From assembly GCA_000004985.1 (NCBI GenBank), contig GG738915.1: 64,000 bases of DNA; one strand, 5' to 3'. The DNA is from Naegleria gruberi (Eukaryota). The notes below the pieces were generated by a model. That model saw only the letters and a program-made list of their open reading frames with translations, did no database searches and had not been told where the DNA came from. This document shows, in pieces, positions 3,135-33,708 of the stretch. The position numbers and the translations under genes are program-made. How positions within the stretch are numbered: the first letter of the stretch is position 1; each line of letters begins with the position of its first letter.

Positions 3135-3236
3135 ATTTATGATTTATATTTAAATAAATTATAATATATTTATTTTGTAATAGTTTTAAATAGGTTTAAT
3201 ATTGCTTTTCGGAAATTTGGAAATATTTAAAAAAAA

Positions 3237-4304
3237 ATGGAGCAACTTAAACAAACTCTCACAAAGATTTGGCAAGAGCCTATTCTTGTTGGTCATCAAT
3301 ATTTACCACCCAAAATTTATGATCTCCTATGGAATATTACAGAGGGAATATTAACTGCGCTATTATATCCGATTTGCATCGTAGTGGGAGTTGTCAGCTT
3401 TTTATATTATAATTTGATAAAGAAGGGAGGAAAGGATTTATTCAAATCATCAGAGGAATATAATTATGAAAAGATTTTAATTGTTGGAAGTAGTAGTGGA
3501 ATTGGTAGAAGTTTGGCTCTTGAAATTTCAAGCAAATTCGCCACTAGAAAGAATCAAAAGAGTTTGACCTTGACATTGGTTGGAAGAAATTTGGCTGCTA
3601 ATGAAAAGTTAAAAGAAGAATGTAGTGCTATTATTAAAGAAAGTCATCCTGTTGAAGATTTTGAAATTAATGTTAGACAAGCTGATGTGACAAACGCTGA
3701 GAGAATGAAGGAAATTGTTAATGAAATGGATTATGATTGTATCATTGCTAATGCTGGTGTTACAATCTTTGTCATGATGGGAGATAAGAAACCATCTGAG
3801 TTCACAACATTGGAAAAGATTCAAATGGAATTCAAATGTTGGGAAACTAATCTTACTGGTTGCACTAATACTGCCTTCCCAGCCATTGAAAGATTGATTC
3901 AAGATGCTGACAATGGAAACAAGAAGAGAAGACATGTTATTTTAACATCTTCTGGAACAGCATACTTCCCAGAAATGGGTCTCTATCCAACAGCTAAATC
4001 TGCTCTTATTGGAATTGCTAGAAATCTCAGAGCCAAGTTGGAATCCTCTCCTAAATATTCAAATCTTAGAGTTTCAGTTCTAGTGCCAGGATGGGTCCAT
4101 TCAAGTATGTCAAAGGCTTTCCCAGCTAAGGAAATGCAACTTGGAATGATTTCTTCAGAGTTGGCTGCCAAGTTGACTTGGAGTGGAATTGAACGTGATT
4201 TTGAAATTATTGATATTAGTGGAGTTTGGGGATTGATCATGCGTGTTTTCCTCAAATTCCCATTCAATCTTAGTTCATCACTTGTGGCTTTACTCGATAG
4301 ATAA
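3237..4304 (+). CDS. short-chain dehydrogenase/reductase (SDR) family oxidoreductase with an N-terminal TM helix
   Basis: Carries the Rossmann dinucleotide motif VGSSSGIGRSLA (TGxxxGxG type), the NAG motif IIANAGV, and the catalytic YxxxK motif YPTAKSAL. The ATG follows an aaaaaaaa run. An N-terminal hydrophobic segment, ILTALLYPICIVVGVVSFLYY, is present. Confidence 0.8.
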   Translation: MEQLKQTLTKIWQEPILVGHQYLPPKIYDLLWNITEGILTALLYPICIVVGVVSFLYYNLIKKGGKDLFKSSEEYNYEKILIVGSSSGIGRSLALEISSKFATRKNQKSLTLTLVGRNLAANEKLKEECSAIIKESHPVEDFEINVRQADVTNAERMKEIVNEMDYDCIIANAGVTIFVMMGDKKPSEFTTLEKIQMEFKCWETNLTGCTNTAFPAIERLIQDADNGNKKRRHVILTSSGTAYFPEMGLYPTAKSALIGIARNLRAKLESSPKYSNLRVSVLVPGWVHSSMSKAFPAKEMQLGMISSELAAKLTWSGIERDFEIIDISGVWGLIMRVFLKFPFNLSSSLVALLDR

Positions 4305-4480
4305 ACATCGTATTAAAGTAGCTTTTGTAAGTTTTCTTGATTCATGTTCAACAAATAATTTAACCATTCAACAATACAATTCCTCTTAACATCTCACGTT
4401 TCAGATCTTTAAATAGATATTTGAAACTGCTCACGAACTTTAACAAAAAAAAATATTTAACTTGATAACTTGATCAGAGA

Positions 4481-6592
4481 ATGGTTAAGACTTCAATTGG
4501 AAGAGAAAAACAAAAGGCATCCATTGTTAATATTGCCACAAGAAGATTACTCAAGGATTTGAAGGAAATTAATGAAAATCCACTGCCTGATATTGTGGCA
4601 GCTCCCGTAGATGCAGAGAAAAATCTATTTGAATGGAGAGCCAATTTAAAGGGATTTGGGTCTTATGAAGGAGGAATATTTCACATTAGGCTAACCTTTC
4701 CAACTGACTACCCAATCAAACCACCAACTGTTGAATTGTGTACACCAATTGATCATCCAAATATCATTGGCAAATCAATATGTTTAGACATGTTGGGAGA
4801 TGCATGGTCAACAGCTTACTCTGTGCAATCAATTTTACTCCAATTACAATCCATATTATTGGATGACGAGAGAGTGGATGAGATGGCAACTATTAACCCA
4901 AAGCAATACAAGCAAAAAAAGAAGGAAATAGTTGACGCTTGTAAGTGGGCAGTTGAGCAATCTTTGAGATTTTCAGACCCTTCTGTTGGCCATTTTCCTC
5001 CTGCAAAGCCGTTCCCAAAGTTTCAAACAGCACAGGCAAAAGTTATTGATTTGAATGAGTTTACCAAATCTGAGCTTGTTTGCTATTTCTCCAGAAGTTC
5101 CTATGAGGAAGATGTGCTTGGTTATGGTATCACCTTTACAAAGAATATTAGAACTGGAAGAATTAATTTGATCCAATCAACTCTTGAGTTGTTATCTTTG
5201 AGATCATTTATGAATTATTCCATTAGAAAAACATCGAATGGTGATGAATTTACTCATTGGATGCCTATTTTCGTTGAGCCAAACCATGGTAAAAAGGCAA
5301 TGCACTTGGCTAAACGTTCAATTTCAATGATTTGCACAGGTAATGCAAAGAATTTCAAACCTGAACAAGTTATGGAAGTATTTCCAAAGATTCTGACAAC
5401 TATTTCTGTTGACATTATGACTACACAGAAGAAGCATGGTTCTATCAGAGCATTGAAGATCTATTGTCATTACTATAGAACATTTTTGGAGTTTGTGAAG
5501 GAATATCCAGAATTATTGGTAACAATTAATAATAATGTTAAGAGATTTATTGATTCTGAGGATAACAGACACAAAGACGTGACTCCAAATTTAGGAGAAC
5601 TATTGGCAATCCTTCCATTGAGTGATTACTCTTGGAAGGACATTTCAAGTGCATACATTGAGGAGTCGTTTACTAGAAATGTATTTTGGCTTCTTAATAG
5701 ATATAAAGAATTAGAAATGGAAAATTGCAAAGAATTCGATGACATGGATCGTCTCAAATATTCATTTGAAACAAGTAAGGCCAGTCAGAAATTGTTAATG
5801 TTGAACATATTCATTTTAGAAAACATTGCAAGACCTGAAAGAACTGAAATTGAAGAAATCAGAAATGAGTTTGATAATAGACTTGGTAGATTGAATCCAA
5901 CAGATGAAGATTCCTGTTTAGAAACATTGAAAAAAATTAACTGTGTCAAAAACTACTTGGAATTCTTTGAGTTTGTTGGAATGAGTCAGGTCAAGGAAGA
6001 TCAAATTGTTGAACTATTGAAGCAATCTATCAAGAAGAGTAAGACTAAGGGATACCATGGATCTACTATCTATGTTATGAGTCCTGAAGAGTTCCAAAGA
6101 CACACTAAGAAATTGGACGAATATCTAATTAATGATGGACAAGGAAATTACATACTCGAAACCAATGAAGAGAAGTGGAAAACAGGCTGTATACAAAGAT
6201 GGGGTACGGTTAAATATCCTGACTATTTGGAAAACCTCTCAAATCCTTGGCGAAAACTCTACTTGCAGTACAATTTACAAGACTTGATTTCTTCATTGAA
6301 TGAATCTTGTGATTTCAAGTATCTCCATCATGTTTTGGAACTTTGTGTTGAGATTCCAAGATTGGAAATTGTCATGTTTAATCCAGAAAAGTTGAAGAGC
6401 AAATACTACTTCCTCACGCTTGTATTGACTAAACTTGTGAATTTGGACACCTTAACAATTTCAAGAGGTGAAACTGGTTTGGGAACATCAGGTTTCCGTG
6501 CTCTTATTAAAGGGCTTTCTAATAATCAAGCCAAATTAGAGAATTTGATTTTAGACAGTTGTGATATTACAGCTAGTTGTGTTGAGAATTAA
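4481..6592 (+). CDS. ubiquitin-conjugating enzyme E2 (UBC fold) with a long C-terminal extension ending in RNI-type leucine-rich repeats
   Basis: The N-terminus reads RRLLKDLKEI...FEWRANLKG...YEGGIFHIRLTFPTDYPIKPPTVELCTPIDHPNIIGKSICLDMLGDAWS, which contains the HPN motif and the catalytic Cys of E2 enzymes. The C-terminus, LDTLTISRGETGLGTSGFRALIKGLSNNQAKLENLILDSCDIT, is an RNI-like LRR. It probably continues into the next ORF; see findings. Confidence 0.7.
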   Translation: MVKTSIGREKQKASIVNIATRRLLKDLKEINENPLPDIVAAPVDAEKNLFEWRANLKGFGSYEGGIFHIRLTFPTDYPIKPPTVELCTPIDHPNIIGKSICLDMLGDAWSTAYSVQSILLQLQSILLDDERVDEMATINPKQYKQKKKEIVDACKWAVEQSLRFSDPSVGHFPPAKPFPKFQTAQAKVIDLNEFTKSELVCYFSRSSYEEDVLGYGITFTKNIRTGRINLIQSTLELLSLRSFMNYSIRKTSNGDEFTHWMPIFVEPNHGKKAMHLAKRSISMICTGNAKNFKPEQVMEVFPKILTTISVDIMTTQKKHGSIRALKIYCHYYRTFLEFVKEYPELLVTINNNVKRFIDSEDNRHKDVTPNLGELLAILPLSDYSWKDISSAYIEESFTRNVFWLLNRYKELEMENCKEFDDMDRLKYSFETSKASQKLLMLNIFILENIARPERTEIEEIRNEFDNRLGRLNPTDEDSCLETLKKINCVKNYLEFFEFVGMSQVKEDQIVELLKQSIKKSKTKGYHGSTIYVMSPEEFQRHTKKLDEYLINDGQGNYILETNEEKWKTGCIQRWGTVKYPDYLENLSNPWRKLYLQYNLQDLISSLNESCDFKYLHHVLELCVEIPRLEIVMFNPEKLKSKYYFLTLVLTKLVNLDTLTISRGETGLGTSGFRALIKGLSNNQAKLENLILDSCDITASCVEN

Positions 6593-6618
6593 CAAAAGGA
6601 TCTCTGAGCTCTTGTAAC

Positions 6619-8418
6619 TTGAAACGTATTGCTCTATGTGGAAATCCACTGGGAGATCAAGGAGCCAATTACCTGTCCAAATTCCTAATGAGACATGAAA
6701 ATGTTCCCCATCTACGTGAGTTGGATCTTTCTCGCTGTGGAATTAGACAAAATGGAGCTGAATGTATTGCTGAAGCTTTGCTAGTAAAGAGGGAAATTAC
6801 ATCCTTCAAATTTATTGGAAATCCATCAGAGCAAGGACTGTATACCATATTGAAACACTTGGGATACTCCTCATGTATTGCGGAGATTGATTTCAGTATG
6901 ACTAGTTCTATTGTAGCCAATGGTAATTCTGAAAGTATGGTCAAACTGTTGGATCTTTCCACAACTCTCAAGAAGATTAACTTGTGGAAAGCTAATGGAT
7001 TCCACATTCTCACCCAAGAAGTATTCAACAGAATTGGTAAATCAAAGAGTTTGAAAGATATTGATATGGCCGAAACAAAATTCAAAGATATTTCACTATT
7101 TGCTTTCGCTTTGAAAGATAACTACGTATTGGAAACTTTGAATCTATCAAATAATGATATCAAACTCTCTGAGGTGTATCAATTATATTGTAGATTACTT
7201 TTGTTACACTTTGAGAATGCTAACAAAACGAGAGAATTCTTGGATGGACCTAATGCTGCTGTCCCACCAAAGCTTGTCCATTTACAAAAGCTAACTCTAT
7301 CTAAGAATAATTTAACTAATCTATTACAGTCAAATATCAAAGAGGCAATTAGTATTGGTCAAATAATGAAAATGTGTACAAATTTGAATTATTTGGATTT
7401 ATCGGGATGTAAAATTGACAAAACTCATATGGAAGGAATTGCAGCAGCTTTGGATCCTAAATTCAACCTTCCTCTCAAAACTCTCAAATTGAATAATAAT
7501 GAGATTGGCAAAACAGGTTTGAGACCACTTGCCTCTATAATGAAACTCAATACTACCATTGAAGATTTGGACCTCTCTGGTAATGATTTGGGAGTTACAG
7601 GAAGTGTTTCATTAGCTGAAATCATTACAAATAACTCTTCCATCAAGAAATTGAACATATTCTCATGTTTTGTTCAAATTGAAGGAATTGACATTATTTC
7701 CAAAGCATTACAACAAAACACATCAATCACAGATTTGGATATTGGTTTGAATTCAGCCAAAGAAAGAGGAGCTCTTTCAATTATTGAAATGCTCAAACAA
7801 AATACCACTCTTAAGAGGCTTGGACTCAAATTGAATCATTTAAGTGACAAGACATGTACACAAATTGCCAATATCATTGCTATTGAAAATCCTAAATCCG
7901 CAATTCAATATTTAGCTCTTTCTGGTAATTCTCTTTCAATTTCAACAAGTTCCAATATTTCCATAGTTCTAAACTCTGTAAAGGATAGAGTAATTGAGTT
8001 TGATCTTACCAAATTGGTTGAAGTGAAAGATACAGAAAAACAAAATAGAACTATTTATCTTTCACCACTTCCAAACTCAATTACAATTCAAGATATCAAG
8101 AAATTCTTCTATCAACACAAATGTGGAGCTATATTGAATGTCTACATTCACAAACATAAGACTCCCAATAAGAAGACCAGACTCAACAAGTATGCCTTTG
8201 TAGAGTTTGCTCATCCAGACTCACTTCAATTGGCCATACGTTTGAGATATTCTAATAGACCAGAAAAGAAATCTCCAAATGTTGTAAAGCTTTTGAAGAG
8301 AATTCGTGGAAATGATGGTAAGAAAACTAAAGCAAAATGGTATGAATCCAAGCTCATCATCACCAAATCAGGCAATCAACTTCACAATGAAAGAGCCAAA
8401 AAGAAAATCAAACATTAA
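6619..8418 (+). CDS. RNI-type LRR protein with a C-terminal RRM, probably the 3' part of the same gene as 4481-6592
   Basis: Repeated LRR units of RNI/NLRC type, for example LDLSRCGIRQNGAECIAEAL and LDLSGNDLGVTGSVSLAEII. The C-terminal region, TIYLSPLPNSITIQDIKKFFYQHKCGAILNVYIH...KYAFVEFAHPDSLQLAI, contains an RNP-1-like KYAFVEF motif, so I call it an RRM. The ORF begins at TTG rather than ATG, and the same frame stays open back to 6586. Together these argue for continuity with the upstream ORF. Confidence 0.6.
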   Translation: MKRIALCGNPLGDQGANYLSKFLMRHENVPHLRELDLSRCGIRQNGAECIAEALLVKREITSFKFIGNPSEQGLYTILKHLGYSSCIAEIDFSMTSSIVANGNSESMVKLLDLSTTLKKINLWKANGFHILTQEVFNRIGKSKSLKDIDMAETKFKDISLFAFALKDNYVLETLNLSNNDIKLSEVYQLYCRLLLLHFENANKTREFLDGPNAAVPPKLVHLQKLTLSKNNLTNLLQSNIKEAISIGQIMKMCTNLNYLDLSGCKIDKTHMEGIAAALDPKFNLPLKTLKLNNNEIGKTGLRPLASIMKLNTTIEDLDLSGNDLGVTGSVSLAEIITNNSSIKKLNIFSCFVQIEGIDIISKALQQNTSITDLDIGLNSAKERGALSIIEMLKQNTTLKRLGLKLNHLSDKTCTQIANIIAIENPKSAIQYLALSGNSLSISTSSNISIVLNSVKDRVIEFDLTKLVEVKDTEKQNRTIYLSPLPNSITIQDIKKFFYQHKCGAILNVYIHKHKTPNKKTRLNKYAFVEFAHPDSLQLAIRLRYSNRPEKKSPNVVKLLKRIRGNDGKKTKAKWYESKLIITKSGNQLHNERAKKKIKH

Positions 8419-8732
8419 TCTGTTTTAATCACCAAATTCCCAAATTTCACTAGTAGAATTCTTGACATTGAATCATTTTTTGAATGTATTTTTACTAAGG
8501 TTTTGTGAAATTTATTTTCAATACTTCAGAAAAGGTCGAAATGATAAGGTAAAGATAGTCCTCTAACTAGCTTACTTTAAAATTAGTAAAACTCCTACAC
8601 CCGTCAAAAGTCCTACCCGCTGCATTTAAGGATCCAACAAGTGCGGGCTATTTTAATCATCATTGATGCAACTTGATGTAATATGAGTGGCATCAAGTAT
8701 TTTCAAACAAAACACAACAAAACACATAAAAA

Positions 8733-9737
8733 ATGGCAGGAGGAGGTTCAACCTACAAATCGACAGAACCAATCGGAACTGGTAGAATATTCTTTTATTG
8801 CATTGTTTGGCTGATATTGGTGATTGGTCTATCGTTTATGAATAAAGCAGTATTTAAATGGACAGAATTCAAGTATCCAGTGCTGCTGTCGACTGTACAT
8901 ATGATTATAAATTGGTTGATGGGAAGTTTTGTGTGGGGAAGGATGAATGGAAAGATAAAGGAGGAAGAGGAAAAGAAGGGTCATGATTTGAGACATTTAA
9001 TAATGTACTTCTCATTGTTATTTGTATTGAATATTGCTTTCGGAAATATGAGTGTCAAGGCAGTGAATTTATTGTTGAGTCAAGTTTTCAGATCTTCAAT
9101 GCCAATATTTATAATGATTTGTTCGGTTGTGTTGGGTGTTGGAAGTAGACCTAGTACACGCGTTATTCTCACTGTTTTACCAATTATTATTGGAGTTTAT
9201 TTGACTTGTAAGAAAGATGACAGTAAGGTTAGCTCAAATACTGAAGAAGATTTATTGAATATCAAATCATTGGCTATTTTATTAATTGGAAACATTATGT
9301 GTGCTCTCAAAACTACTCTTACCAATAAGTATCTCAATCAGTACAAGTTCCATCCAATTTATTTATTGAGTAAGCTTTCAATGTGGAGCTCTTTTGGAAT
9401 GTTTGCTTTTGCTGCAGTGACTGGAGAAGTTTCAGACCTTTTCAACAATAATTTACATGTTTTATATAATGTCAAGACAGTTGGATTTGTCATTTCTACA
9501 GGATTTGTTGCATTCCTATTGAACTATTTCAATTTCCTTGCCAATTCCTCTACAAGTCCACTCACAATGGGAATTTGTGGATTGTTACATCAAGTGCTGA
9601 CAGTCTACCTTTCTACCATTGTTTTTGATACATCTTTGAATCAAACTAATGTGATTGGTATTTGTCTTGCAATGATTGGCAGTGCTCTCTATACTTTTGT
9701 AAAGTATTTAGAAGCTCAAAAAGTAAAATCAAACTAA
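8733..9737 (+). CDS. SLC35/triose-phosphate-translocator-like nucleotide-sugar or sugar-phosphate transporter (DMT superfamily)
   Basis: About 334 aa with roughly 9-10 predicted TM helices. The N-terminal motif FMNKAVF..FKYPVLLSTVHM is typical of the TPT/SLC35 family (FP.P..LT..H). The ATG follows aaaaaATG. Confidence 0.55.
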   Translation: MAGGGSTYKSTEPIGTGRIFFYCIVWLILVIGLSFMNKAVFKWTEFKYPVLLSTVHMIINWLMGSFVWGRMNGKIKEEEEKKGHDLRHLIMYFSLLFVLNIAFGNMSVKAVNLLLSQVFRSSMPIFIMICSVVLGVGSRPSTRVILTVLPIIIGVYLTCKKDDSKVSSNTEEDLLNIKSLAILLIGNIMCALKTTLTNKYLNQYKFHPIYLLSKLSMWSSFGMFAFAAVTGEVSDLFNNNLHVLYNVKTVGFVISTGFVAFLLNYFNFLANSSTSPLTMGICGLLHQVLTVYLSTIVFDTSLNQTNVIGICLAMIGSALYTFVKYLEAQKVKSN

Positions 9738-9787
9738 TTTCTAACAACAACTTTCGTATTGAACTTTCCAATAAATTATATTAAAAA

Positions 9788-10858
9788 ATGGCAGAACAAG
9801 TTAGGGTTGAGTTATTCGATTTTTCAACAACACCATCACAGCAAGGCTGGGAATTAAATAAATTTCTGCAAGAAAGGTTTCGTAAGAAGAAACCGACCGG
9901 AGCTTCATTTGCATATTCCACCTTTCGTAAAATTAATACTATTAGCACAAGAAGGTGGAAACGACGATTCATTGCCAACTCGTTTGCAATTTGCAAATCT
10001 TTAAATTGTATTCTCATGCTCTCATCAAACAACACGGTCTATGTTTATTCTCTCAAATCTAAAAGGTATCTGAATCGGTTTCCACTCTTTCCCTTTGGAT
10101 ATAATTTGGGAGGACCTCCACTACATTTTAAAGTGGTAGAACGAGAGCAAGATCCAAATAATCAGGCTCACATTATTGTACTACTTTCGGATAGTTTTAA
10201 TGGTAAATTGGAAATACATAAAATTAATTTGGACACATTGATGAAAGAACGAAGTCGTATGAAGAATAGAAATACCAGGATTTTAGATAGCTATGCTTCT
10301 AATTTGGTGTGGAAAATTGAGAAGAATATACCCAAGACAAATGGAACTGCCACAATGCTATTTGTTCCAAATAGAGAGTTTGAGAATGTTGAAAAGGGTG
10401 ACGCTGCTATATTGATCTATTTCACTAATCAAAAGAATATCCTAGATTGTTTTAGTTACAAGTATGGAAAACAACTGAGTTCTATAACTGTCCCTGATAC
10501 TATAAGTAGCTCAAGTACTGTATTACATTTAGCTGTCAGTGGATCTAATTTAATATTTTACAGGTATAACTCTGCTGATTTTGTGGATCAAAGAATGAAT
10601 GTAATACAGAGTTTGAAAACAAACATTATTTGCATTGGAAGCGCTGTCATCTATGAGCCAAATTCAAATGTGTTTATAACCCAGCAATCATCTAAAATTA
10701 TGGCATTTCAATATCGCGATGATAATCTCAGTGTTGTTGGATCACGCAAGTTGAGAGTAAAAGGTAAAACAATCGATTGGTCAATGATGCATTTCAATGA
10801 TTCCAATGGAGAGCTATTGGTTCTGCATCGTAATGAGAAATTATTAACATTCAAGTAA
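9788..10858 (+). CDS. hypothetical protein, 356 aa
   Basis: Clean ORF with an aaaaaATG context that starts only 50 nt after the stop of the previous gene. I recognise no domain. The sequence character could fit a beta-rich fold. Confidence 0.5.
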   Translation: MAEQVRVELFDFSTTPSQQGWELNKFLQERFRKKKPTGASFAYSTFRKINTISTRRWKRRFIANSFAICKSLNCILMLSSNNTVYVYSLKSKRYLNRFPLFPFGYNLGGPPLHFKVVEREQDPNNQAHIIVLLSDSFNGKLEIHKINLDTLMKERSRMKNRNTRILDSYASNLVWKIEKNIPKTNGTATMLFVPNREFENVEKGDAAILIYFTNQKNILDCFSYKYGKQLSSITVPDTISSSSTVLHLAVSGSNLIFYRYNSADFVDQRMNVIQSLKTNIICIGSAVIYEPNSNVFITQQSSKIMAFQYRDDNLSVVGSRKLRVKGKTIDWSMMHFNDSNGELLVLHRNEKLLTFK

Positions 10859-11400: not shown

Positions 11401-13173
11401 TTAGTTGTCGTCTACTGTACTCTCCTTTAACACAGCATCTTCAAAATTTTGGATTTGATGATCAATAAAGTGTTGAAAACGAGAACAGTCACTAACTTTC
11501 CATTCAATTTCATTCCATTTCGAAAGTAATTTAAACATCATGCTGGAGAAAGAGGATAGATCTTTAAGAATTTGAACTTTTTTCAATTTTGGTGGTTTAA
11601 ACTGTTGCAATAACTCAATATCTTTGTACGATGAAAATGTACATTCCAATGCAATTAAATTCTCATAGTTTTTACCCAATTCTTCAAAAAATTCTTTTGG
11701 AAATTCTCCAATTGTACAAATAATACTTAAATATTCCAAATTTCTCAGTACATCCAATTTAATAAAATCCATCAATTGCTCCTTTCCACTGATTACCACT
11801 GATAATCTCCTTAAATGTTTTAAATGTTCAATCTTTTCCAAATTTTGAGAGATATCTGAATTTGTAAACAGCGATTCCAAATTATTCAAACATTCATTAG
11901 AAAACATATTAAAATCTATATCTCCTAGGACTTTGATACGTAAATGCTTCAAATTTTTAACTAAGCTCAAATTACTCAAACTAAATGCCAAATCTTTGGT
12001 CGCATATAAATTAAATACTAATATTTCTAAATTTCTCAATGTATTATTACTGAAAAATTTTTCAGTGTCCTTAAATACTCTCGAAACTATTTTCAATATT
12101 TTCAGATTTGAAAAGTTATATTTCCATACATGATTAAGACAATAACTGGCTTGATCAGTGTCTTGTGAATAATCAATCCTTAAGTATTTTAAATTTAGAA
12201 TCATATCAGTGTCAACAACCTCATCATCTTGCTCACTTGCATCTATCATGTATGCTTTTAAAATTTCTAATGTTTTAATATTATTTAGAAGCATTATTAG
12301 TTGCTTTTCACCATCGAGCTGTATATCCAAAACTGAGAGGAGTTTCAAATTTAAAATCCGAGAAATATTACTAAATAGATCATCAATTCTCAATATTCTA
12401 AGACAGTCAGTATAATTATTGATAATTGGTGATAGTTTTTTCATAATATCATACTCCTCCATTGAAATATCTAAAAGTTTCAAATTATATAAATTTCTGT
12501 CTTTTAATTCTATTTTGTTATAACTAGTTTTAATTTTTATAAATTGTATGGTAGGTTTCTTGAAATGGAATGTGAAAGTTTTATCATTTTCCTCAAATAA
12601 CCTCTTAATGACAAGGTGTTTGATGTTTACACATTTGAGAATTAATTTTAATAGAGAATCGGGTTCATACTGAGAAAGTATTTCCAAATTTTCTATTTGA
12701 ATTAAATCACAGTTAGGTATTAGAGTAGATTTCCTTATCAATAAATTTTTAATAGTATTAATAACATTCCTAAATTGTTTTGAAACTGTCAAGTATTTAA
12801 AAATCTCAAAATCATAATTTAAATATGCAAATATGTTACATAATACATCATCACAAAATAATTCCGAACAGGTTTTGATTTGTTTGGTTTTCAACAGTTT
12901 ATCGTGATCCATATCTTGATCACTAATTTCCTCAAATTTGCGTTTGTTCTTATTTTCATCAGTGCTACTTCCATTTGATTTTAATTTACATAATTCAATT
13001 TCCAATTTTAATTCTTCCTGTCTTGCTTTTGCTTTGGCTTCTTCTTGAGTGAATTGTAATTTCAACTTCCACAATTCAAATATTTGCTCCGAAGAGAGTC
13101 CAAGCCTTTGACATTGTTCAATGAAACCATCAGAGTCCCCACCATCCTTTAACACAGCATTTTGTTGCGGCAT
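11401..13173 (-). CDS. F-box / leucine-rich-repeat protein with an N-terminal coiled coil
   Basis: F-box-like segment LFCDDVLCNIFAYLNYDFEIFKYLTVSKQFRNV. Many LRR-like units follow, such as NLKHLRIKVLGDI and LEYLSIICTIGEF. The ATG at 13171-13173 follows aaaaaATG in minus orientation. Confidence 0.7.
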   Translation of the reverse strand: MPQQNAVLKDGGDSDGFIEQCQRLGLSSEQIFELWKLKLQFTQEEAKAKARQEELKLEIELCKLKSNGSSTDENKNKRKFEEISDQDMDHDKLLKTKQIKTCSELFCDDVLCNIFAYLNYDFEIFKYLTVSKQFRNVINTIKNLLIRKSTLIPNCDLIQIENLEILSQYEPDSLLKLILKCVNIKHLVIKRLFEENDKTFTFHFKKPTIQFIKIKTSYNKIELKDRNLYNLKLLDISMEEYDIMKKLSPIINNYTDCLRILRIDDLFSNISRILNLKLLSVLDIQLDGEKQLIMLLNNIKTLEILKAYMIDASEQDDEVVDTDMILNLKYLRIDYSQDTDQASYCLNHVWKYNFSNLKILKIVSRVFKDTEKFFSNNTLRNLEILVFNLYATKDLAFSLSNLSLVKNLKHLRIKVLGDIDFNMFSNECLNNLESLFTNSDISQNLEKIEHLKHLRRLSVVISGKEQLMDFIKLDVLRNLEYLSIICTIGEFPKEFFEELGKNYENLIALECTFSSYKDIELLQQFKPPKLKKVQILKDLSSFSSMMFKLLSKWNEIEWKVSDCSRFQHFIDHQIQNFEDAVLKESTVDDN

Positions 13174-13549: not shown

Positions 13550-15531
13550 ATGAAAATAACGCTCGGTTTCAAACCAGGCGTTTTTAATGCTCTTGTTCAA
13601 GTGCCTGATCTTTTCAGTGTTATTCTTCAATATTTGGATTGTTCCTCATTGTTTGCCCTAACGATGGTGAATAAGAAATTATTTGGATTATTTGATGAGA
13701 GTAAAATTGATGAATTGGTTCAATCATCATCGGAAGAGGTGTTGAACGTTGTGACAATTGATCCTAATTTATGGTTGAATTTGGTTTCATACTATGAAGA
13801 AAGGTTGAGAAAATTAAAATTGGAGTTTAATTCTAACGATTTGTAAGTTGGCTTATCAAGTAGTTGAATATTTACTTGTTTTCTAAAAGCTATCGATACT
13901 ATCCAATGAACGTAAATTTTCAAGAATATATTGAGCTTGTGAAGCCAAAAACAACAGAGAAGGAAAATGTAAAAACTAGCAGTATTAGAGAAATACTTGA
14001 AATTATTGTTGACTGTAGGAAAAAATTGAAAAGGTTGTACTCTGATTGTTGGAAACAAAAGAAACCTGAAGAATATGGTGTTGAGTTTTCCAAGAGTGGA
14101 AGATCTAGTTGTAAAACTTGTTTTAAGCCAATTCCATACGGAGTTCTCAGAGGCTATCAGGACAACCACGAAAACTATTACAAAGCTCATGAATGTCACC
14201 ATTTGACTTGCTTTTATAAAATACTATTGACTGAAAATGTACGTGAAGAAGATGTGAAATATGAAGAGGAGAAACAAAAAGCAGCCATTTCCAAGCTTTA
14301 TGAGTTTATAGCAAAGGAGAAAAAATTAATACAGAAATCAAAGTGGCAATGCACCACTTGTGATGGATGTAATGTACTATTGAATGGAGATGCATACATG
14401 TCAGCAGAAAAAGGAAAGATGGATCTATGTGCAAAGTGCTATGTCACTAACGATGAGCTGGTTTCTGGAAAAAGTGAGAAGGGGCCTTTTGTCCCTACCC
14501 CTCCTTTAAAACCTTTCCAAAAATGTAGATATTGTAAGGAACAGATCAAAAGGGTCTTATTTAATTGTCATCAATGTAATATTGGCTTTTGTGGAGAGTG
14601 TTTAAAATCCTTAAGGTGGTTTGATCACAAAAAACACTTTATTAATGTAATTGGAAATGCTCTTGATGATGAAATGAAATGTTTAACTGCTGACTTCAAA
14701 CCTGAAGATGCTAAACCATTACCAGTGAGTGCTTATGAAAGGTTTTCTGTTCTGGATTTGATGGAAGAATTTTTAGGAGAATCTAAAAGGGATGCAGGTC
14801 AACCAACTCCTTCTGAAAGATTCACAGCTACCCCCAACAAGAAAACAGATCTATCAGGGATAAAGTCACAAAAAACTGCAACAATTACAAAACCAAGTAA
14901 TAACGAATCTAACCACTCTTCTAAAACCAACACTCAACCAAAGAAGCCAGAAAGTACAAAACCAACAACCGAAAAACAAGTTCAAAGCAACTTGAAACTC
15001 TCCAAATCGCAACAAGCTAGTTCCAAGACAATCCCTCAGAAGTCTTCTGTTCAACAAACTCTTTCATCAACAACTTCTAAAAAAAGAGTTTTAATTGAAT
15101 TGAGCTCTGATGAAGAATCAGAAGATGAAATCGATCTAAAGAAATTAGAGGCAACTACAGGATCTAATGAGATTCCAAAATTAAAACCTGAAGTAGTTAT
15201 TGCCTCAAAAGTTGAACCAGCCAAGAAGAAATCAAAACAAGAGAAATCCAAGAAGAAAGAAAGCAAGGAAAAAACAAAAAAGAAAAAACCAAAGAAAGAA
15301 GAAAACAGTGATGAAGAGAATGACGAAATCTACCTTGTGGAAAAGCTGTTGGATAGAAAAATAGTGCATGGAAAGCCATACTATCTAGTAAAGTGGGAAG
15401 GTTATCCCAACTCAGATAACTCGTGGGAACCAAACAACAATATTTCACCAGATCTAATTGAAGATTTTGAGGAGGAATTTGAGAAAAACAAGCCACGAGT
15501 AGCAAGCAAGACGAAGAAGAGAAAAATATAG
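13550..15531 (+). CDS. F-box + ZZ-type zinc-finger + C-terminal chromodomain protein, two exons
   Basis: Exon 1 (13550-13842) encodes an F-box, VPDLFSVILQYLDCSSLFALTMVNKKL. A GTAAGT donor sits at 13843-13848 and an AG acceptor at 13888-13889, giving a 47-nt intron that preserves phase. Exon 2 (13890-15531) carries Cys-rich ZZ-like motifs, CTTCDGCNVLLNGDAYMSAEKGKMDLCAKCY and CRYCKEQIKRVLFNCHQCNIGFCGEC, then a Lys-rich acidic/basic tract. The chromodomain is EIYLVEKLLDRKIVHGKPYYLVKWEGYPNSDNSWEPNNNISPDLIEDFEEEF. Confidence 0.65.
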
Positions 15532-16997: not shown

Positions 16998-18202
16998 ATG
17001 GTGGGATTGAATGGAACGAATACAACTATTGTAGCCGAAACATCTAGGGAAGAGTTTGGACCATTTCAGTACATGATTTTCGGGGTCAATATTCCCTTTC
17101 TGATAATATATTCAATTCTATTTAGTGCTACCTTGATTAGTTTGATATTTAGTGTAAAGAAACAAGATAAGACGAAACGGAAAACCTTCTACATCCTTAT
17201 ACTTGTTCTGTCCTTGCTGTTTGCAGTCATTTTGAATTTACTTACAAGAATTGGTTCCGAACTTTGCTATTTCGAAACTGATCCGGATAGACTTGAACGA
17301 ATATATGGACTGGTAAAGGCTATTGACAGAACCATGATAGGATTTACAATGTCTATGGAACTTTTATTAATTGATTACATGTCTTTTCTATTGTAAGTAC
17401 TTAGAATACTTTCCATTTTATGATGATTAGTTTGGAAACAACTTGGAAAGTGAGCCATTTCATCTAAGCATTTCAAAATTGCTAAGTTTATAACTTTTGG
17501 ATTGGCTTTGGTTGTTTTGATTTGTTTAATGTTTCTTCTGAGTGGATTTTTAGTATTAGGAGGTTTCTTTTACGTTTATGGAAATCTTGGGATATTGAAT
17601 ACGATACTGACTTGTCTATTTACTGCCTCTGCTATATTGGTAGGGGTTGCTTCCAGTATGCTCCTGATAAACACTCATGTAGGTTTCTAATTATTTAAAA
17701 TTTGAACAAAATCAATTAGTATTGTGGGAAATTAATGCTGAAAACACTTGTTAATGGAAGAAAACAAGCCATGACACTTTCCTCATCTCCACCACAATTG
17801 AAAGAAAGTTATGATTTGAAAACAAGAGCCCTCAAGAAAGTGTGGAGTATCATTATTGTAGTTACACTAACTTCTGTTTTTCAGATTATTGGATTTATTT
17901 TCACTCCATTATCAATGGTGGATCATTTTATGATGAGTGGATTTCATATATGTTACAATATATCAATAATGGTCCTTGTAGTTCTGTATTTATATTTATA
18001 TGGACCTGTGAAGGAATTTCAACAATTATTCGAAAAGAGAGATTCAAAAGATTTGACAACCATTGTGACTGCATTCGATTCAACAGGATCTGAACGGATT
18101 CAGAAAGGATTAACCTTATCACATGTTTCGCCTGTGTCTCCTACCGATAGTGAAATAACCTCCAGGCAGGAATTGTTTCAGATAACAAATTCTAGGATAT
18201 AA
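16998..18202 (+). CDS. seven-transmembrane receptor-like (GPCR-like) protein, three exons
   Basis: Exon 1 is 16998-17392, with GTAAGT at 17393. Exon 2 is 17543-17678, with acceptor tttcttctgAG at 17541-42 and donor GTAGGT at 17679. Exon 3 is 17720-18202, with acceptor at 17718-19. Phases are consistent. The joined protein has seven hydrophobic helices, a charged third intracellular loop (KLMLKTLVNGRKQAMTLSSSPPQLKESYDLKTRALKK), and an S/T-rich C-terminal tail. Confidence 0.55.
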
Positions 18203-19004
18203 CAAAATACTTTATTAAGACATGCTGAATAACTTTAAATCTGAATTATTATTAATATTAATATTCAATTCATTATGTTGCATAACAGTACTTTGCAACA
18301 TTATGATGGAAACTTAAGTTGGAGCAGATTACAATAGTGGAATGATAAGACAAGATATCGTACTCAATACGTAAAGCTTCATAAATTAGAAAGGTGAAAA
18401 TAGACTTCAATTCTTCCACTATCCTTCTAATTATCCAATCACGACTTGAAAAAATCAAAAAAATGAAAACACTCATCAAGGTACGATTTTTTCTTTTTCA
18501 AAATGATGATTAAATATTATCTTTATGTCGGAATGGAAAATTCAAACTCTTATTTTCATAATTTTAATGTATTTAATATATTGATAGATTAAATATTTTC
18601 CTCCTGTCATTGTTGTCTTGACAGCAATTTCTCTCCTATTTTGTATAGTTTTGAGCTTGTTAACAGCACCAGATAGTGTTTCTAAACATTTGCCTGCCCT
18701 GAGTGAAACAGGAATATTTCCTCCGACAAAATATATTTTCACAGCATCCCTTGTGATACCATCCATATGTTTAATAGTTGGAGCAATTTTGCAATTTATT
18801 ACAACAAAGGAAAAATTAACCTCATTGGATCATCAACGACACACTTTAAATTATTGTAATGGATGTTTTAGAATGGGATGGTTGAGTATTGCATCCTGTA
18901 TTTTTGCTTTGATTTCAGGATTTTGTTTACTTGGACTTGGAATTGTGCCAATTATGGGAGGAGAAGTTATTGATGATAGTTTACTTTCGAATTCTACTAC
19001 CTCT
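17534..19004. repeat. segmental duplication, copy A (7TM gene exons 2-3, the intergenic spacer, and most of the DRAM-like gene)
   Basis: Near-identical to 33700-35285, which lies at an offset of 16166-16281 nt. There are a few SNPs, including one amino-acid change from K to Q at the start of exon 3. An indel of about 107 nt lies in the spacer between the genes, and an indel of about 12 nt lies in intron 1 of the DRAM-like gene. Confidence 0.85.
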
Positions 19005-19649
19005 ACTACTGTATCTTTTATAACTAGTTCTACTAGTCAACAGTCAGCAGAATCAATTGAAATTCTTCCATATACCATCATTCACTTGATATTTACATTC
19101 TTCTTCATGTCAACTGTGTTTATTCACATGGTACTCAATACCATTTTCAATGTAGTAAGTGCAATTATAGTAATTATTTATTAAGCGGAATGCATCACCA
19201 ATTCATTTAATATCCAGTTATATGATAAGAAAATTTCTCCAAAAAAGAAAATTCTCAATCCTTGGGTTATTGTAAAAATTGTCAGTTCATGCTCATTCTT
19301 GGTTGTGGGGCCAATCTTTAGTTTTATTATGGGAATTTTAGTTACAGTCACATGTTCTCAAACTGAGGTTATTAACAAGACTTGTCCACTCATGAATTTA
19401 TTCCAATTATTCCTTGGAGCTCTATCTCAATACAGTATTGTTGCCTCAATTTTAGTTTTCATGCTCACTTACATGTATGATTTCAAAGATGCATCCATCA
19501 GTATTAATGCTGAAGATCCAAGAAATGATATTCAAGAGAGGTTATCAGGACTTTCCTTAGAAAAGGATTTTGAATTGGAAGAGGACGATCTTGGAGCAGG
19601 AGACACCAACAGATTACACACTCTTGAGGATGAAGACGAATTTAATTAA
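18463..19649 (+). CDS. Frag1/DRAM/Sfk1-family-like six-TM membrane protein with an acidic C-terminal tail, three exons
   Basis: A tiny first exon, ATG AAA ACA CTC ATC AAG (18463-18480), is followed by GTACGA. Exon 2 is 18588-19154, with acceptor gatAG at 18586-87 and donor GTAAGT at 19155. Exon 3 is 19218-19649, with acceptor atccAG at 19216-17. The N-terminal motif HLPALSETGIFPPTKYIF resembles the DRAM/Frag1 signature (P.ISDTG..PP...IF). About six TM helices are predicted. The C-terminus is EEDDLGAGDTNRLHTLEDEDEFN. Confidence 0.5.
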
Positions 19650-20312: not shown

Positions 20313-22265
20313 ATGACGAGTCATCAAACAGGGCAGAGTTCGTCTTTTACGGTTCAGGCGGGCGGCTCATCCTCTTCTTCGACAGTAGTTCCTCCTTCGT
20401 CTTCATCATCATCGGGTAGTGCTGCTGATAGTAACAATAACAATTTGAAGGCAACTAGTGAAAATCATAAAAATGATGATGCCAAATCAACAACAAGTAC
20501 AAATAGTAGTTTACATCAACAACAACAACAACACAGCGAATTAAACATCTCTGGAAATAATTTAAATGTTTTGGTTACACCTGTAGCATTGGATGGAAAG
20601 TCTGAGCCATTATCTCCTACAGCACACAGAAGAGCAACATCAATTTCATCAAATGGATATCCAGCAAATACACCAGCAACACCTGTCCATCCACAATTTA
20701 CTTCTCATCCTGAAGATGATAATGATTCTGATAATGGAAAATTAAAAGGAAAAAAGAACAAGAAGAAAAAGTGGCATGTCAATGCTATGGGTGAAATTGT
20801 TTACAAGGAACACAATTCATATAATTTAATGCGTCAAATCCAAATGGGTATTAGATCTGCAATCAGTGAAATAACACCTAAAAAACAAAAAGATGTACTA
20901 TTACTTAAGGATTTTACTAATATTAACAAAATGCCGTTTCCAGAAAAGGGATCAACAAGAACACCTCCACACGAATTCCCATTCTTTGATTTTTATGATT
21001 ACTCACCATTTCCTTTTAGACATTTGAGAGAACGTTTTGGTATTGATGCTTCCAATTATCTTGTTTGTTTATGTCATGAACTGTCTCTCTCAATTCTTGG
21101 CACTCCTGGTAAGAGTGGTGCTCTCTTCTTTTTCTCTGCTGACATGCAATACATGTTAAAGACTGTAACAAAAAAGGAATCAAAATTCTTGAGAAAAATT
21201 TTGCCAGATTACTATAACCATGTTATGGCCAATCCAAACACTCTCATTACTCGTTTTTATGGAATGTATAGTATAAAACCTCGAGGAGGTAAAAATGTAA
21301 GATTTATTGTCATGAACAATGTGTTTGACACAACAATGTATGTTTCTGAGAGATACGATTTAAAGGGTTCAACTGTTGGACGAGAAGCATCAGAGAAAGA
21401 AAAAAAGAGAGAAACACCAATTTATAAGGATTTAGATTTTTTGAGGAGAAGTAGCAAGTTAAAAGTTGGACCTCAAATGAAGAATCTCATTATGAATCAA
21501 CTTCAAGTTGATGCTACATGGTTGGAAAAGATGAAGATCATGGACTATAGTTTACTAGTTGGTGTTCACAGATTGGATCCTGAATTGGATGCAGAAGTAT
21601 TGAAAGAAGCTCAAAATTGTAATATCAAATTGTCAGATTCTGACATTCCTTCGGAAGCTTTTACTACTGTATTTAATCATGGCTCAAGTGTGGCTTCAAG
21701 TTCAATGACTTCTACATCATACTTAAACGGAACCGATCAGGGAACAGGCGCTTCATCTTCTTTAAATACTACAAATCCAATTTCAGATCATCATGACCAA
21801 GTTGTAAATAGTACAGATATTGCCATTGAGGTTAGTGATGAATCTCATCCAACATTGAATGGTTCATCAAGCACCAAAACCATAGAAAATACACCATCAA
21901 CACATCATCCAACAAGTATGTCAACTACTACACAGGACAGCAGAAAGAGTAGTGAAAGCACCTCCTCATTCTTTGGAAGATTTATGAATCACAGACTGAG
22001 TGTTTCTTTGAAAAAACACTACAGAGGTCCACGTGCCTCTCTATTCCAACAATTCCATGGTGGTACACTGTCACTTCCTTTAGAGGATGGTAGCCGTGAA
22101 ATTTACTACTTTGGTATTATTGATTTGTTACAAAAATGGAATAACAAGAAACAAATAGAAAATATTTTCAAGGGCCTTGTAGCTGACAGAAACCAAATTT
22201 CTGCAGTCTCACCAAAGAATTATGCAATGAGATTTGTAAAATTCTTGGGAGATGGTTTACAATAA
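20313..22265 (+). CDS. phosphatidylinositol phosphate kinase (PIP4K/PIP5K family)
   Basis: The PIPK catalytic core reads GKSGALFFFSADMQYMLKTVTKKESKFLRKILPDYYNHV...TLITRFYGMY...RFIVMNNVF...YDLKGSTVGREA...MDYSLLVGVH...EIYYFGIIDLLQKW. The N-terminus is low-complexity and S/N/Q-rich. The ATG follows aaaaaaaaATG, and about 500 nt of C-rich leader lies upstream. Confidence 0.85.
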   Translation: MTSHQTGQSSSFTVQAGGSSSSSTVVPPSSSSSSGSAADSNNNNLKATSENHKNDDAKSTTSTNSSLHQQQQQHSELNISGNNLNVLVTPVALDGKSEPLSPTAHRRATSISSNGYPANTPATPVHPQFTSHPEDDNDSDNGKLKGKKNKKKKWHVNAMGEIVYKEHNSYNLMRQIQMGIRSAISEITPKKQKDVLLLKDFTNINKMPFPEKGSTRTPPHEFPFFDFYDYSPFPFRHLRERFGIDASNYLVCLCHELSLSILGTPGKSGALFFFSADMQYMLKTVTKKESKFLRKILPDYYNHVMANPNTLITRFYGMYSIKPRGGKNVRFIVMNNVFDTTMYVSERYDLKGSTVGREASEKEKKRETPIYKDLDFLRRSSKLKVGPQMKNLIMNQLQVDATWLEKMKIMDYSLLVGVHRLDPELDAEVLKEAQNCNIKLSDSDIPSEAFTTVFNHGSSVASSSMTSTSYLNGTDQGTGASSSLNTTNPISDHHDQVVNSTDIAIEVSDESHPTLNGSSSTKTIENTPSTHHPTSMSTTTQDSRKSSESTSSFFGRFMNHRLSVSLKKHYRGPRASLFQQFHGGTLSLPLEDGSREIYYFGIIDLLQKWNNKKQIENIFKGLVADRNQISAVSPKNYAMRFVKFLGDGLQ

Positions 22266-24602: not shown

Positions 24603-25415
24603 TTATAATTTATTTCTCGAATTAATGAATTGTTTCTTTTTGAGTTCGTAACAATCCATCCAACTATTGAAGAAAATATTAATTTCGTCATCAGTGTAAT
24701 TTTCAGATGGATGGCACGAAGACAAAGGAGAGGAAGGAGAAGAAAGGGAATCGAATTGGGAGGTTATGGAGCAAGTTGTTGTGGAGGAGTATGGTGTAAT
24801 TGTCGAACTAGTTAATGGAATGACTGGTGTGGAAACTTCAGAAGAAGTTTGAACAATATTAGAATTAGAACGGTGTCTAGTGTTTTGAGTCGTACGGGAA
24901 TCAACAGTAGCAACAGATGACGGCTCTTCTGAATCGCTTTGAGAGAATTCATCACAACTAGCACTTATTTCAGAGGAACTCTTTGGAGTAATAGGCATAC
25001 CAGAGATTTCTGTGGTAATATCATTCAAATTGCTGGTGCATGGAGTAATGATGATTGGTGAGTAAATTGAATCTTGTGATTGAAGATTGAAAGAGGAGCA
25101 AACTGGAGTTAAAACAAGAGGAAAGTCTTCCAAGTGACGACGTTTGGATTTTTGAGTTTCCTCCAATCTGTTGGATGGTCGTTTTGTGGACTTGTTTTCC
25201 CTCTTCCTCATTGAATACTCCTTACCATTCTTACACACAGTTAGGATGAGAGAAGGTTTTGGACTCGAATTACTCTGCAGACAGGACTGCAGAGTTTTGG
25301 TAGTTGATGATTTTTCAGTTTCTTCACAACTGATGAGTGAAGAACATGAAACTTTACATTGTTGTTGAACATCAATAACATTCTGTTCAACTTGGCATAA
25401 TCTTGCATGAGCCAT
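24603..25415 (-). CDS. Ser/Thr-rich low-complexity hypothetical protein
   Basis: ORF with an ATG at 25413-25415 (minus) preceded by aaaaaaacaacaATG. The product is rich in S, T and P runs. The start is only 20 nt from an assembly gap, so the 5' end is uncertain. Confidence 0.45.
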   Translation of the reverse strand: MAHARLCQVEQNVIDVQQQCKVSCSSLISCEETEKSSTTKTLQSCLQSNSSPKPSLILTVCKNGKEYSMRKRENKSTKRPSNRLEETQKSKRRHLEDFPLVLTPVCSSFNLQSQDSIYSPIIITPCTSNLNDITTEISGMPITPKSSSEISASCDEFSQSDSEEPSSVATVDSRTTQNTRHRSNSNIVQTSSEVSTPVIPLTSSTITPYSSTTTCSITSQFDSLSSPSSPLSSCHPSENYTDDEINIFFNSWMDCYELKKKQFINSRNKL

Positions 25416-25434
25416 TGTTGTTTTTTTCAATGGG

Positions 25435-33649: not shown

Positions 33650-33699
33650 NNNNNNNNNNNNNNNNNNNNNNNNNNNNNNNNNNNNNNNNNNNNNNNNNN
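33650..33699. other. assembly gap (50 N), adjacent to the segmental duplication boundary
   Basis: Run of N characters. Confidence 0.99.
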
Positions 33700-33708
33700 T
33701 CTTCTGAG

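What the first reader, a model, noticed from the sequence alone, without database searches (positions are those of the whole stretch)
6572..6621. The E2 (UBC)-LRR ORF and the LRR-RRM ORF are probably one gene joined by a 23-nt GT-AG mini-intron or a 1-nt frameshift
The upstream ORF ends in the middle of an RNI-type LRR, at ...LENLILDSCDITASCVEN followed by a stop. The downstream ORF has no ATG; the ORF track starts it at TTG. It continues the same repeat type immediately, as LKRIALCGNPLGDQGANYL. The downstream frame stays open back to 6586. Removing positions 6576-6598 (gttgtgttgagaattaacaaaag, a GT...AG intron) joins the two in phase, giving ...DITARSLSSCNLKRIALCGNP.... This is a plausible LRR unit. 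A ubiquitin E2 fused to RNI-LRRs and an RRM is an unusual architecture.
Basis: partly seen in the sequence, partly recalled or inferred. Interest (0 to 1): 0.5.

Follow-up and report, generated by a model that had tools for sequence, protein, structure and literature searches.

The report
One gene broken by a missing base
The two reading frames are a single intronless gene for a large ubiquitin-enzyme/LRR/RNA-binding protein that looks split only because one G is missing at position 6586/6587 in this sequence; there is no 23-base mini-intron.

Summary
ORF A (4481-6592) stops inside an RNI-type LRR. ORF B (6619-8418) has no ATG, stays open back to 6586 and continues the repeat.

They are one gene, but the favoured 23-nt GT-AG intron is wrong.

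- A 99%-identical metagenome contig (L001) reads GAGGAA where the window reads GAGAA. It has one continuous ORF across the junction.
- Naegleria fowleri and Willaertia orthologues map residues 732/733 and 737/738 onto DNA that abuts at 6586 in two frames.
- The proposed intron encodes the conserved motif ELTKG. Removing it cuts a 28-residue LRR unit to 20.
- Its donor is GTTGTG, whereas the ORF breaks examined elsewhere in the window carry GTAAGT.
- The N. fowleri orthologue has no intron at this site.

Whether the missing G is a consensus error (my lean) or a very recent real frameshift allele needs the reads.

The UBC-LRR-RRM architecture is conserved as single proteins of about 1300 aa across Heterolobosea and in more distant unidentified relatives. 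A side result: the unannotated middle region is predicted to fold like the human UBR4 hemiRING-UZI E3 module. The protein may therefore be a natural E2-E3 fusion.

The parts
4481..6586 (+). First part of the single CDS (codons 1-702, ATG 4481 to GAG 6584-6586), read in ORF A's frame.
   Evidence: ORF list. tblastn places N. fowleri P0001 residues 3-732 on 4478-6586 in frame 2. The N-terminus is colinear with orthologues, so the gene has no 5' intron here.
6584..6589 (+). Site of the frameshift. The window reads GAGAAT; the near-identical allele L001 reads GAGGAAT. One G is missing between 6586 and 6587, which brings TAA (6590-6592) into frame.
   Evidence: Direct comparison of the sequences and base-by-base alignment (window 6586 '-' against L001 169 'G'). 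It is the only indel inside coding sequence among about 12 indel events between the two haplotypes.
6576..6598 (+). The proposed 23-nt 'mini-intron'. It is not an intron; it is coding sequence for S-C-V-E (upstream frame) and E-L-T-K-G (downstream frame).
   Evidence: ELTKG is conserved in P0001-P0006 and P0008-P0009 (ELTKS, ELTTT and ELTNG in three others), and the intron model leaves an 8-residue gap in the alignment. The donor is GTTGTG, against GTAAGT at the ORF breaks examined elsewhere in the window.
6587..8418 (+). Second part of the same CDS (codons 703-1312 after the G is restored; stop TAA at 8416-8418), read in ORF B's frame.
   Evidence: N. fowleri residues 733-1294 map to 6586-8259 in frame 1. 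L001 carries one continuous 666-codon ORF across the junction to the same stop. Substitutions against L001 in this part are 7 synonymous to 2 non-synonymous.
4544..4930 (+). UBC (E2) catalytic domain, residues 22-150, with HPN and the catalytic Cys101 in ICLDML.
   Evidence: Pfam UQ_con, E 6e-27, 94 bits against a cutoff of 27. The best PDB sequence match is the N. fowleri E2 5v0r, E 5e-26. C101-L-D-M-L is invariant in 25 sequences.
5048..6070 (+). Middle region (about residues 190-530) with no Pfam match, predicted to fold like the UBR4 hemiRING-UZI E3 module. Boundaries are approximate.
6443..7992 (+). RNI-type leucine-rich repeat region (corrected residues about 655-1171). The frameshift falls inside the second unit, LENLILDSCDITASCVEELTKGSLSSCN (28 residues).
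   Evidence: Pfam LRR_6, LRR_1 and LRR_4. The repeat register of the corrected protein shows modal 28-residue units.
8053..8241 (+). C-terminal RRM (corrected residues 1192-1254), with an RNP2-like IYLSPLP and an RNP1-like KYAFVEFA.
   Evidence: Pfam RRM_1, E 9e-8, 32 bits against a cutoff of 20.7. It is conserved in all 19 aligned homologues.

Best explanation
Positions 4481-8418 are one intronless gene for a protein of about 1312 aa. Its parts are a UBC E2 domain, a UBR4-like helical module, RNI-type LRRs and an RRM.

In this sequence record a single G is missing from GAGGAA at 6584-6588. That shifts the frame, brings TAA at 6590 into frame, and makes the gene look like two ORFs.

I judge the missing base most likely to be a base-calling or consensus error in a draft scaffold. 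In that case the organism makes the full-length protein by ordinary translation, with no splicing or recoding at this site.

Shown: the single-gene status, the exact position of the 1-nt deletion, and the absence of an intron. Inferred: that the deletion is an artefact rather than a real allele.
For: 1. An independent metagenome contig, L001 (ENA ERZ929261), is 98.96% identical over window 6419-10753. It has the extra G and one continuous ORF across the junction, reading ...DITASCVEELTKGSLSSCNLKRIAL....

2. tblastn places N. fowleri residues 3-732 on 4478-6586 and residues 733-1294 on 6586-8259. Willaertia switches frame at 737/738. The residues are consecutive and the DNA segments overlap by 1 nt.

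3. After correction the LRR unit is 28 residues, the modal length in this protein.

4. Orthologues are single proteins of 1242-1383 aa. In the N. fowleri gene, residues 60-1349 lie on one exon. Its only introns, 153 nt (GTAAGT) and 73 nt (GTATGT), are in the first 60 codons.

5. For an artefact or a very recent event: ORF B is completely open. Its substitutions against L001 are 7 synonymous to 2 non-synonymous, and 11 to 2 over all compared parts of the gene. Every other indel between the two haplotypes is intergenic. The record is a draft scaffold with N gaps.
Against: No reads are available, so an error cannot be told apart from a real, very recent frameshift.

The deleted base sits in a run of only two G's, which is not a classic long-homopolymer error site.

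The other long ORFs in the window, more than ten, are intact, so the assembly is not generally riddled with indels.

The window and L001 are clearly different haplotypes or strains, about 1% diverged. A real difference at this base is therefore possible.
Confidence: 0.58

Rival explanations
1. The 1-nt deletion is real. This strain or haplotype carries a very recent frameshift allele. It truncates the protein after the E2 and UBR4-like parts and leaves the LRR-RRM part untranslated, as a null or hypomorphic allele that may be heterozygous.
For: The window and the metagenome contigs differ by about 1% substitutions and many intergenic indels, so they are distinct haplotypes in which a real difference at this base is possible. 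The site is only a GG dinucleotide. The other genes in the window look intact.
Against: The downstream 1.8 kb has no stop codon or other damage. It shows 7 synonymous to 2 non-synonymous changes, so any inactivation must be extremely recent. The gene is conserved as one protein across Heterolobosea. Every other indel between the haplotypes avoids coding sequence.
Confidence: 0.36
2. A 23-nt GT-AG spliceosomal mini-intron (6576-6598) is removed from the mRNA and joins the two ORFs.
For: GT at 6576 and AG at 6598 exist, and removing the stretch restores the frame. One other ORF break in the window could be a 24-nt intron (30752-30775), but that one has a GTAAGT donor and is unverified.
Against: The stretch encodes SCVE and ELTKG, which align without a gap to SIQELTKG in Naegleria, Willaertia and others. 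The intron model deletes 8 conserved residues and shortens the LRR unit from 28 to 20 residues. A 99%-identical allele reads straight through in frame. Orthologue residues are consecutive across 6586. The donor GTTGTG does not match the GTAAGT found at the five ORF breaks examined, and 7 of the 10 plus-strand GTAAGT sites sit at ORF ends. Fourteen other GT..AG pairs restore the frame equally well. The N. fowleri orthologue has no intron here.
Confidence: 0.02
3. Programmed -1 ribosomal frameshifting, or another recoding event, at GAG AAT TAA yields the full-length protein from the sequence as it stands.
For: The frames overlap by a few bases, and a -1 shift at AAT/TTA would give the correct downstream frame. 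This follows from the sequence alone.
Against: There is no X_XXY_YYZ slippery heptamer at 6583-6592. The 111 nt downstream fold no better than shuffled sequence (z = -0.32). The near-identical allele and all orthologues need no frameshift.
Confidence: 0.01
4. There are two independent genes: an E2 protein ending at 6592 and a separate LRR-RRM protein that starts near 6619 or at a downstream ATG.
For: This is how a naive ORF caller reads the window.
Against: ORF B has no ATG until codon 24. It starts in the middle of a repeat, and only 26 nt separate the two ORFs. All homologues that cover both halves are single polypeptides. The allele L001 is continuous.
Confidence: 0.02

Closest known systems
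Naegleria fowleri hypothetical protein FDP41_004051 (UniRef 'UBC core domain-containing protein', P0001, 1349 aa). Other orthologues: Willaertia magna ABK040_016060 and ABK040_004011, and Acrasis kona AKO1_010097.
   Same: The order of parts is the same: UBC, conserved middle region, RNI-type LRRs, RRM. Identity is 45-55% over 96-98% of the corrected protein. The sequences are colinear across the junction (SIQELTKGRLVSSNLKRIAL against SCVEELTKGSLSSCNLKRIAL). The catalytic HPN...C-L-D-M-L motif and the RNP1 motif KYAFVEFAH are conserved.
   Different: The window copy has the 1-nt deletion. It lacks the two 5' introns of the N. fowleri gene. Its loop after LDML is 8-15 residues shorter, and it has a small C-terminal insertion. 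At only about 55% identity it comes from a different, unidentified genus.
Human UBR4 E3 module, hemiRING plus UZI subdomain, residues 4831-5183 (PDB 8B5W and 8BTL; PMC10873205).
   Different: Sequence identity is only 11-12%. Neither Pfam nor a sequence profile detects the relationship. The UBR4 zinc ligands (CxxC...HxxC) are not evident. Distant family members have CxxCxH...C(F/Y)H, but the window protein and other heteroloboseans have lost the first two Cys. Here the module is fused in cis to an E2, whereas UBR4 recruits UBE2A/B in trans. E3 activity has not been tested.
E2/E3 hybrid enzymes UBE2O and BIRC6.
   Different: The domain order and the partner domains differ. Neither protein has the UBR4-like module, the RNI-type LRRs or the RRM seen here (established knowledge).
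Assembly frameshift or indel that splits a gene into two adjacent ORFs (a generic annotation artefact).
   Same: Two adjacent ORFs lie in different frames and overlap by a few bases. The second lacks an ATG. The orthologue alignment switches frame with no residue lost.
   Different: None; this is the category the junction falls into.

Membership tests
Spliceosomal GT-AG intron (mini-intron) | GT...AG boundaries whose removal restores the reading frame | tested here: met
   6576-6598 satisfies this, but so do 14 other GT..AG pairs nearby. The feature does not discriminate.
Spliceosomal GT-AG intron (mini-intron) | Donor site matches the genome's own consensus | tested here: not met
   The donor is GTTGTG. 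The ORF breaks at 13843, 17393, 19155, 30367 and 30752 all carry GTAAGT, and so do 24186 and 29885. The N. fowleri orthologue's introns start GTAAGT and GTATGT.
Spliceosomal GT-AG intron (mini-intron) | The removed sequence is non-coding: homologous proteins have no residues aligned to it | tested here: not met
   The stretch encodes SCVE and ELTKG, which align to conserved SIQELTKG. The intron model produces an 8-residue gap.
Spliceosomal GT-AG intron (mini-intron) | Alleles or orthologues also carry an interruption at this position | tested here: not met
   L001 is continuous in frame. In N. fowleri, residues 60-1349 lie on one exon.
Spliceosomal GT-AG intron (mini-intron) | Spliced junction observed in transcripts | not testable with these tools
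   No RNA data exist for this organism.
Single-base frameshift (indel) within one gene | Consecutive orthologue residues map to abutting DNA in two frames | tested here: met
   P0001 residues 732/733 and P0003 residues 737/738 switch from frame 2 to frame 1 at 6586.
Single-base frameshift (indel) within one gene | A near-identical sequence differs by one base at the site and is open through it | tested here: met
   L001 reads GAGGAAT where the window reads GAGAAT.
Single-base frameshift (indel) within one gene | The indel is an artefact of sequencing rather than a real allele | not testable with these tools
   This needs the raw reads or resequencing. The junction pattern was not found in the JGI metagenome, IMG/VR or GTDB collections.
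Programmed ribosomal frameshift | Slippery heptamer, downstream stimulatory structure, and conservation in relatives | tested here: not met
   There is no X_XXY_YYZ motif. The downstream fold has z = -0.32. Relatives need no shift.
Ubiquitin-conjugating enzyme (UBC/E2) superfamily | UBC fold with the HPN motif and the catalytic cysteine | tested here: met
   [not shown]
RNI-like leucine-rich repeat proteins | Tandem units of 28-29 residues matching LRR_6 | tested here: met
   LRR_6 gives E 1e-17. Units of 28 residues appear after correction.
RRM (RNA recognition motif) | RRM_1 match above the gathering score, with RNP1 and RNP2 motifs | tested here: met
   RRM_1 scores 32.3 bits against a cutoff of 20.7. 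KYAFVEFA and IYLSPLP are conserved. RNA binding was not tested.
UBR4-type hemiRING-UZI E3 module | Overall fold: a beta-sheet element followed by an 11-helix UZI bundle | tested here: met
   [not shown]
UBR4-type hemiRING-UZI E3 module | C2HC zinc site of the hemiRING (Cys4838, Cys4841, His4887, Cys4890 in UBR4; PMC10873205) | tested here: inconclusive
   Distant homologues carry CxxCxH...C(F/Y)H. The window protein has D and V in place of the two Cys, and keeps only H171 and C201. No residue-level structural alignment was available.
UBR4-type hemiRING-UZI E3 module | Detectable sequence homology | tested here: not met
   No Pfam hit to a UBR4 family was found in any of 25 members. A profile search of PDB sequences does not recover 8btl or 8b5w.
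UBR4-type hemiRING-UZI E3 module | E2 binding and ubiquitin-transfer activity | not testable with these tools
   This needs biochemistry.

The most novel reading that the evidence does not exclude
The gene encodes a natural single-chain E2-E3 fusion. An active UBC domain is joined in cis to a UBR4-type (hemiRING-)UZI E3 module, followed by an LRR substrate-binding arm and an RRM. Such a protein could be a self-contained ubiquitin ligase directed at RNA-bound or RNP targets.

A smaller novel reading is that the frameshift is a real allele that naturally uncouples the E2-E3 half from the LRR-RRM half.
Probability: 0.4. Interest if true: 0.55.

Novelty: new member of a known kind. Interest (0 to 1): 0.25.

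Why it matters
For annotation, the two ORFs should be merged into one 1312-codon gene, with the base at 6586/6587 flagged as a probable consensus error. No mini-intron should be inferred for this genome from this site. It is a useful warning: a GT..AG pair that restores the frame is nearly always available by chance.

For biology, the junction itself is ordinary. The protein family is uncharacterised, and it appears to join an E2 to the recently defined UBR4 E3 module, LRRs and an RRM. If that is confirmed, it would give ubiquitin researchers a compact natural E2-E3 fusion. It would also be evidence that the hemiRING-UZI module is older and more widespread than the UBR proteins.

Tried and rejected
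- **Frameshifted product on record:** an exact look-up of the 703-aa ORF A product found nothing. No independent assembly carrying the frameshifted form could be found.
- **Junction scans:** I scanned for the junction in either variant. JGI metagenomes, IMG/VR and GTDB genomes all gave 0 hits. The source of the window and any third copy remain unknown.
- **Metagenome project:** a literature search for PRJEB11402 returned 0 papers.
- **Family in the literature:** searches for this protein family and for hemiRING in amoebae found nothing relevant.
- **Naegleria intron lengths:** a search gave only general papers. I used the orthologue's own introns instead.
- **Middle region by sequence:** a Pfam scan of all 25 family members and a sequence profile against the PDB did not identify it. 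The profile gave only weak DRC5/TCTE1 and FBXW matches for residues about 555-645.
- **Foldseek with the full ORF A model:** the top of the list was all E2 hits, so I built a model of the middle region alone.
- **afdb50:** this fold library was unavailable.
- **Programmed frameshift:** considered and rejected.
- **Ciliate-type tiny introns or an alternative genetic code:** considered at the outset and dropped once the orthologues placed the organism in Heterolobosea with the standard code.
Full report
**Setting**

The window holds 35,285 bases of real sequence, about 33% G+C, with two internal N gaps. The rest is N padding. It is gene-dense eukaryotic DNA. The neighbours of the finding include a short-chain dehydrogenase and a triose-phosphate-transporter-family protein.

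**Checking the observation**

- ORF A (4481-6592, 703 aa) ends ...LENLILDSCDITASCVEN followed by TAA.
- ORF B is listed from TTG 6619 to 8418 (599 aa) and begins LKRIALCGNPLGDQGANYL.
- ORF B's frame is open back to 6586, where TGA at 6583-6585 closes it.
- Deleting 6576-6598 joins the two frames.
- Pfam finds UQ_con in ORF A, and LRR_6 plus RRM_1 in ORF B.

The GT..AG pair carries no weight on its own. Fifteen different GT..AG pairs around the junction restore an open frame.

**One gene or two**

I searched with the joined protein. It returned single proteins of 1242-1383 aa that cover 90-98% of the query. They come from Naegleria fowleri (55% identity), Willaertia magna (two paralogues) and Acrasis kona, plus unnamed metagenome and transcriptome sequences. 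More distant relatives of about 1400 aa reach 28-32% identity. The organism is therefore a heterolobosean-like amoeba, and the architecture is conserved as one polypeptide.

**Intron or frameshift**

Five independent lines agree.

1. *A near-identical allele.* The neighbouring 334-aa gene product is also encoded on an ENA metagenome contig, L001 (ERZ929261, 4340 bp). That contig is 98.96% identical to window 6419-10753. L001 reads gtgttgagGaattaac where the window reads gtgttgagaattaac. It carries one continuous 666-codon ORF across the junction...DITASCVEELTKGSLSSCNLKRIAL....

2. *Orthologue mapping.* tblastn places N. fowleri residues 3-732 on 4478-6586 in frame 2, and residues 733-1294 on 6586-8259 in frame 1. 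Willaertia switches at residues 737/738. The residues are consecutive and the DNA segments overlap by one base. This is the signature of a 1-nt deletion, and it leaves no room for an intron.

3. *Conserved residues inside the proposed intron.* In the alignment, the corrected SCVEELTKGSLSSCNLKRIAL matches SIQELTKGRLVSSNLKRIAL without a gap. The 23-nt stretch encodes the conserved ELTKG, and the intron model leaves an 8-residue gap.

4. *Repeat length.* After correction the repeat unit is 28 residues, the modal length in this protein. The intron model gives 20.

5. *Splice signals.* The ORF breaks elsewhere in the window have GTAAGT exactly at the break, at 13843, 17393, 19155, 30367 and 30752. 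Seven of the ten plus-strand GTAAGT sites sit at ORF ends. The candidate donor here is GTTGTG. The N. fowleri orthologue has only two introns, 153 nt (GTAAGT) and 73 nt (GTATGT), both within the first 60 codons. Splicing them out reproduces P0001 exactly, and there is no intron at the homologous site.

Programmed frameshifting is not supported either. There is no slippery heptamer. The downstream RNA folds no better than shuffled sequence (z = -0.32). Relatives need no shift.

**Artefact or real allele**

The window and the metagenome contigs (L001, L002, L003) differ by about 1% substitutions and about 12 indel events. Every indel except this one lies in intergenic DNA.

Within the gene, 11 of 13 substitutions are synonymous. 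Downstream of the frameshift the count is 7 of 9. ORF B has no other damage.

The downstream half has therefore been under purifying selection until essentially now. That fits either a consensus error in a draft scaffold or a very recent frameshift allele. I lean to error, roughly 60:40, but only the reads can decide. No other copy of the junction was found in the JGI, IMG/VR or GTDB collections. The truncated product is not on record.

**What the gene encodes**

The E2 domain is canonical. It has HPN and the catalytic Cys101 in ICLDML, and Cys101 is invariant across 25 sequences. The RRM has good RNP motifs, and these are conserved even in distant members where Pfam misses the domain.

A second, independent model of the middle region alone (pLDDT 83.7) gave only two significant Foldseek hits in the PDB. 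Both are the UBR4 E3 module: 8b5w at E 5e-6 and 8btl_A at E 1.5e-5.

Sequence methods do not see this relationship. The zinc ligands are uncertain. Distant members have CxxCxH...C(F/Y)H, while the heterolobosean members, including this one, have lost the first two cysteines.

The most likely reading is an E2 fused in cis to a UBR4-like E3 module, with an LRR arm and an RRM. No activity has been tested.

**Verdict**

The claim of one gene is correct, the mini-intron is refuted, and the 1-nt frameshift is shown and located exactly. As a finding about gene structure it is ordinary. The protein family behind it is uncharacterised and moderately interesting.

Noticed in passing
[not shown]
   Followed up: partly
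alignment A2, start of the middle region (window residues 164-203; nt about 4970-5090): Distant family members (P0011-P0014, P0023) carry CxxCxH...C(F/Y)H, a possible zinc site. The window protein and other heteroloboseans have lost the first two Cys and keep only the invariant H171 and C201.
   Followed up: partly
window 33700-35285 versus 17534-19013: The scaffold tail, which starts right after the N gap at 33650-33699, duplicates an internal segment at 97-99% identity, including a 155-aa ORF. It is either a real segmental duplication or a scaffolding artefact.
   Followed up: partly
window 13843, 17393, 19155, 24186, 29885, 30367, 30752 (+ strand): ORF breaks elsewhere in the window coincide with GTAAGT donors, with the ORF's TAA stop lying inside GTAAGT. 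Plausible introns are 47-63 nt long. The acceptors were not verified with homologues.
   Followed up: partly
window 30752-30775: GTAAGTACTCTACTAGTTATTCAG is a possible 24-nt intron. It has a consensus donor and a CAG acceptor, and removing it joins two ORF pieces in frame. If real, very short introns do exist in this genome. It is unverified, and the gene has no Pfam match.
   Followed up: no
L001, L002, L003 (ENA ERZ929261 and Logan ERR1078381) versus window 3155-4820 and 6419-10753: Metagenome contigs about 99% identical to the window show that a second haplotype or strain of the same unidentified heterolobosean-like amoeba exists in a public metagenome. The substitutions checked inside the E2-LRR-RRM gene are mostly synonymous (11 of 13), and all indels but one are intergenic.
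   Followed up: yes
window 35286-64000, 25435-25588 and 33650-33699: Only 35,285 bases are real sequence and the rest of the window is N padding. Two internal N gaps interrupt genes on both strands (25387-25936, minus strand; 31957-33864, plus strand).
   Followed up: yes
window 6140-6420 (protein residues about 555-645): The segment just before the LRRs has weak profile matches to the N-terminal region of DRC5/TCTE1 (nexin-dynein regulatory complex LRR proteins, E 3e-4) and of FBXW proteins. This hints at a DRC5-like LRR cap.
   Followed up: no
window 13550-15531, 20313-22265, 22326-24083 (-), 11401-13173 (-): Neighbouring genes include a two-exon protein with a PARP-type zinc finger and a chromodomain, a PIP5K, an F-box/WD40 protein and an F-box protein rich in L and I. 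This is ordinary eukaryotic content consistent with an amoeba genome.
   Followed up: no
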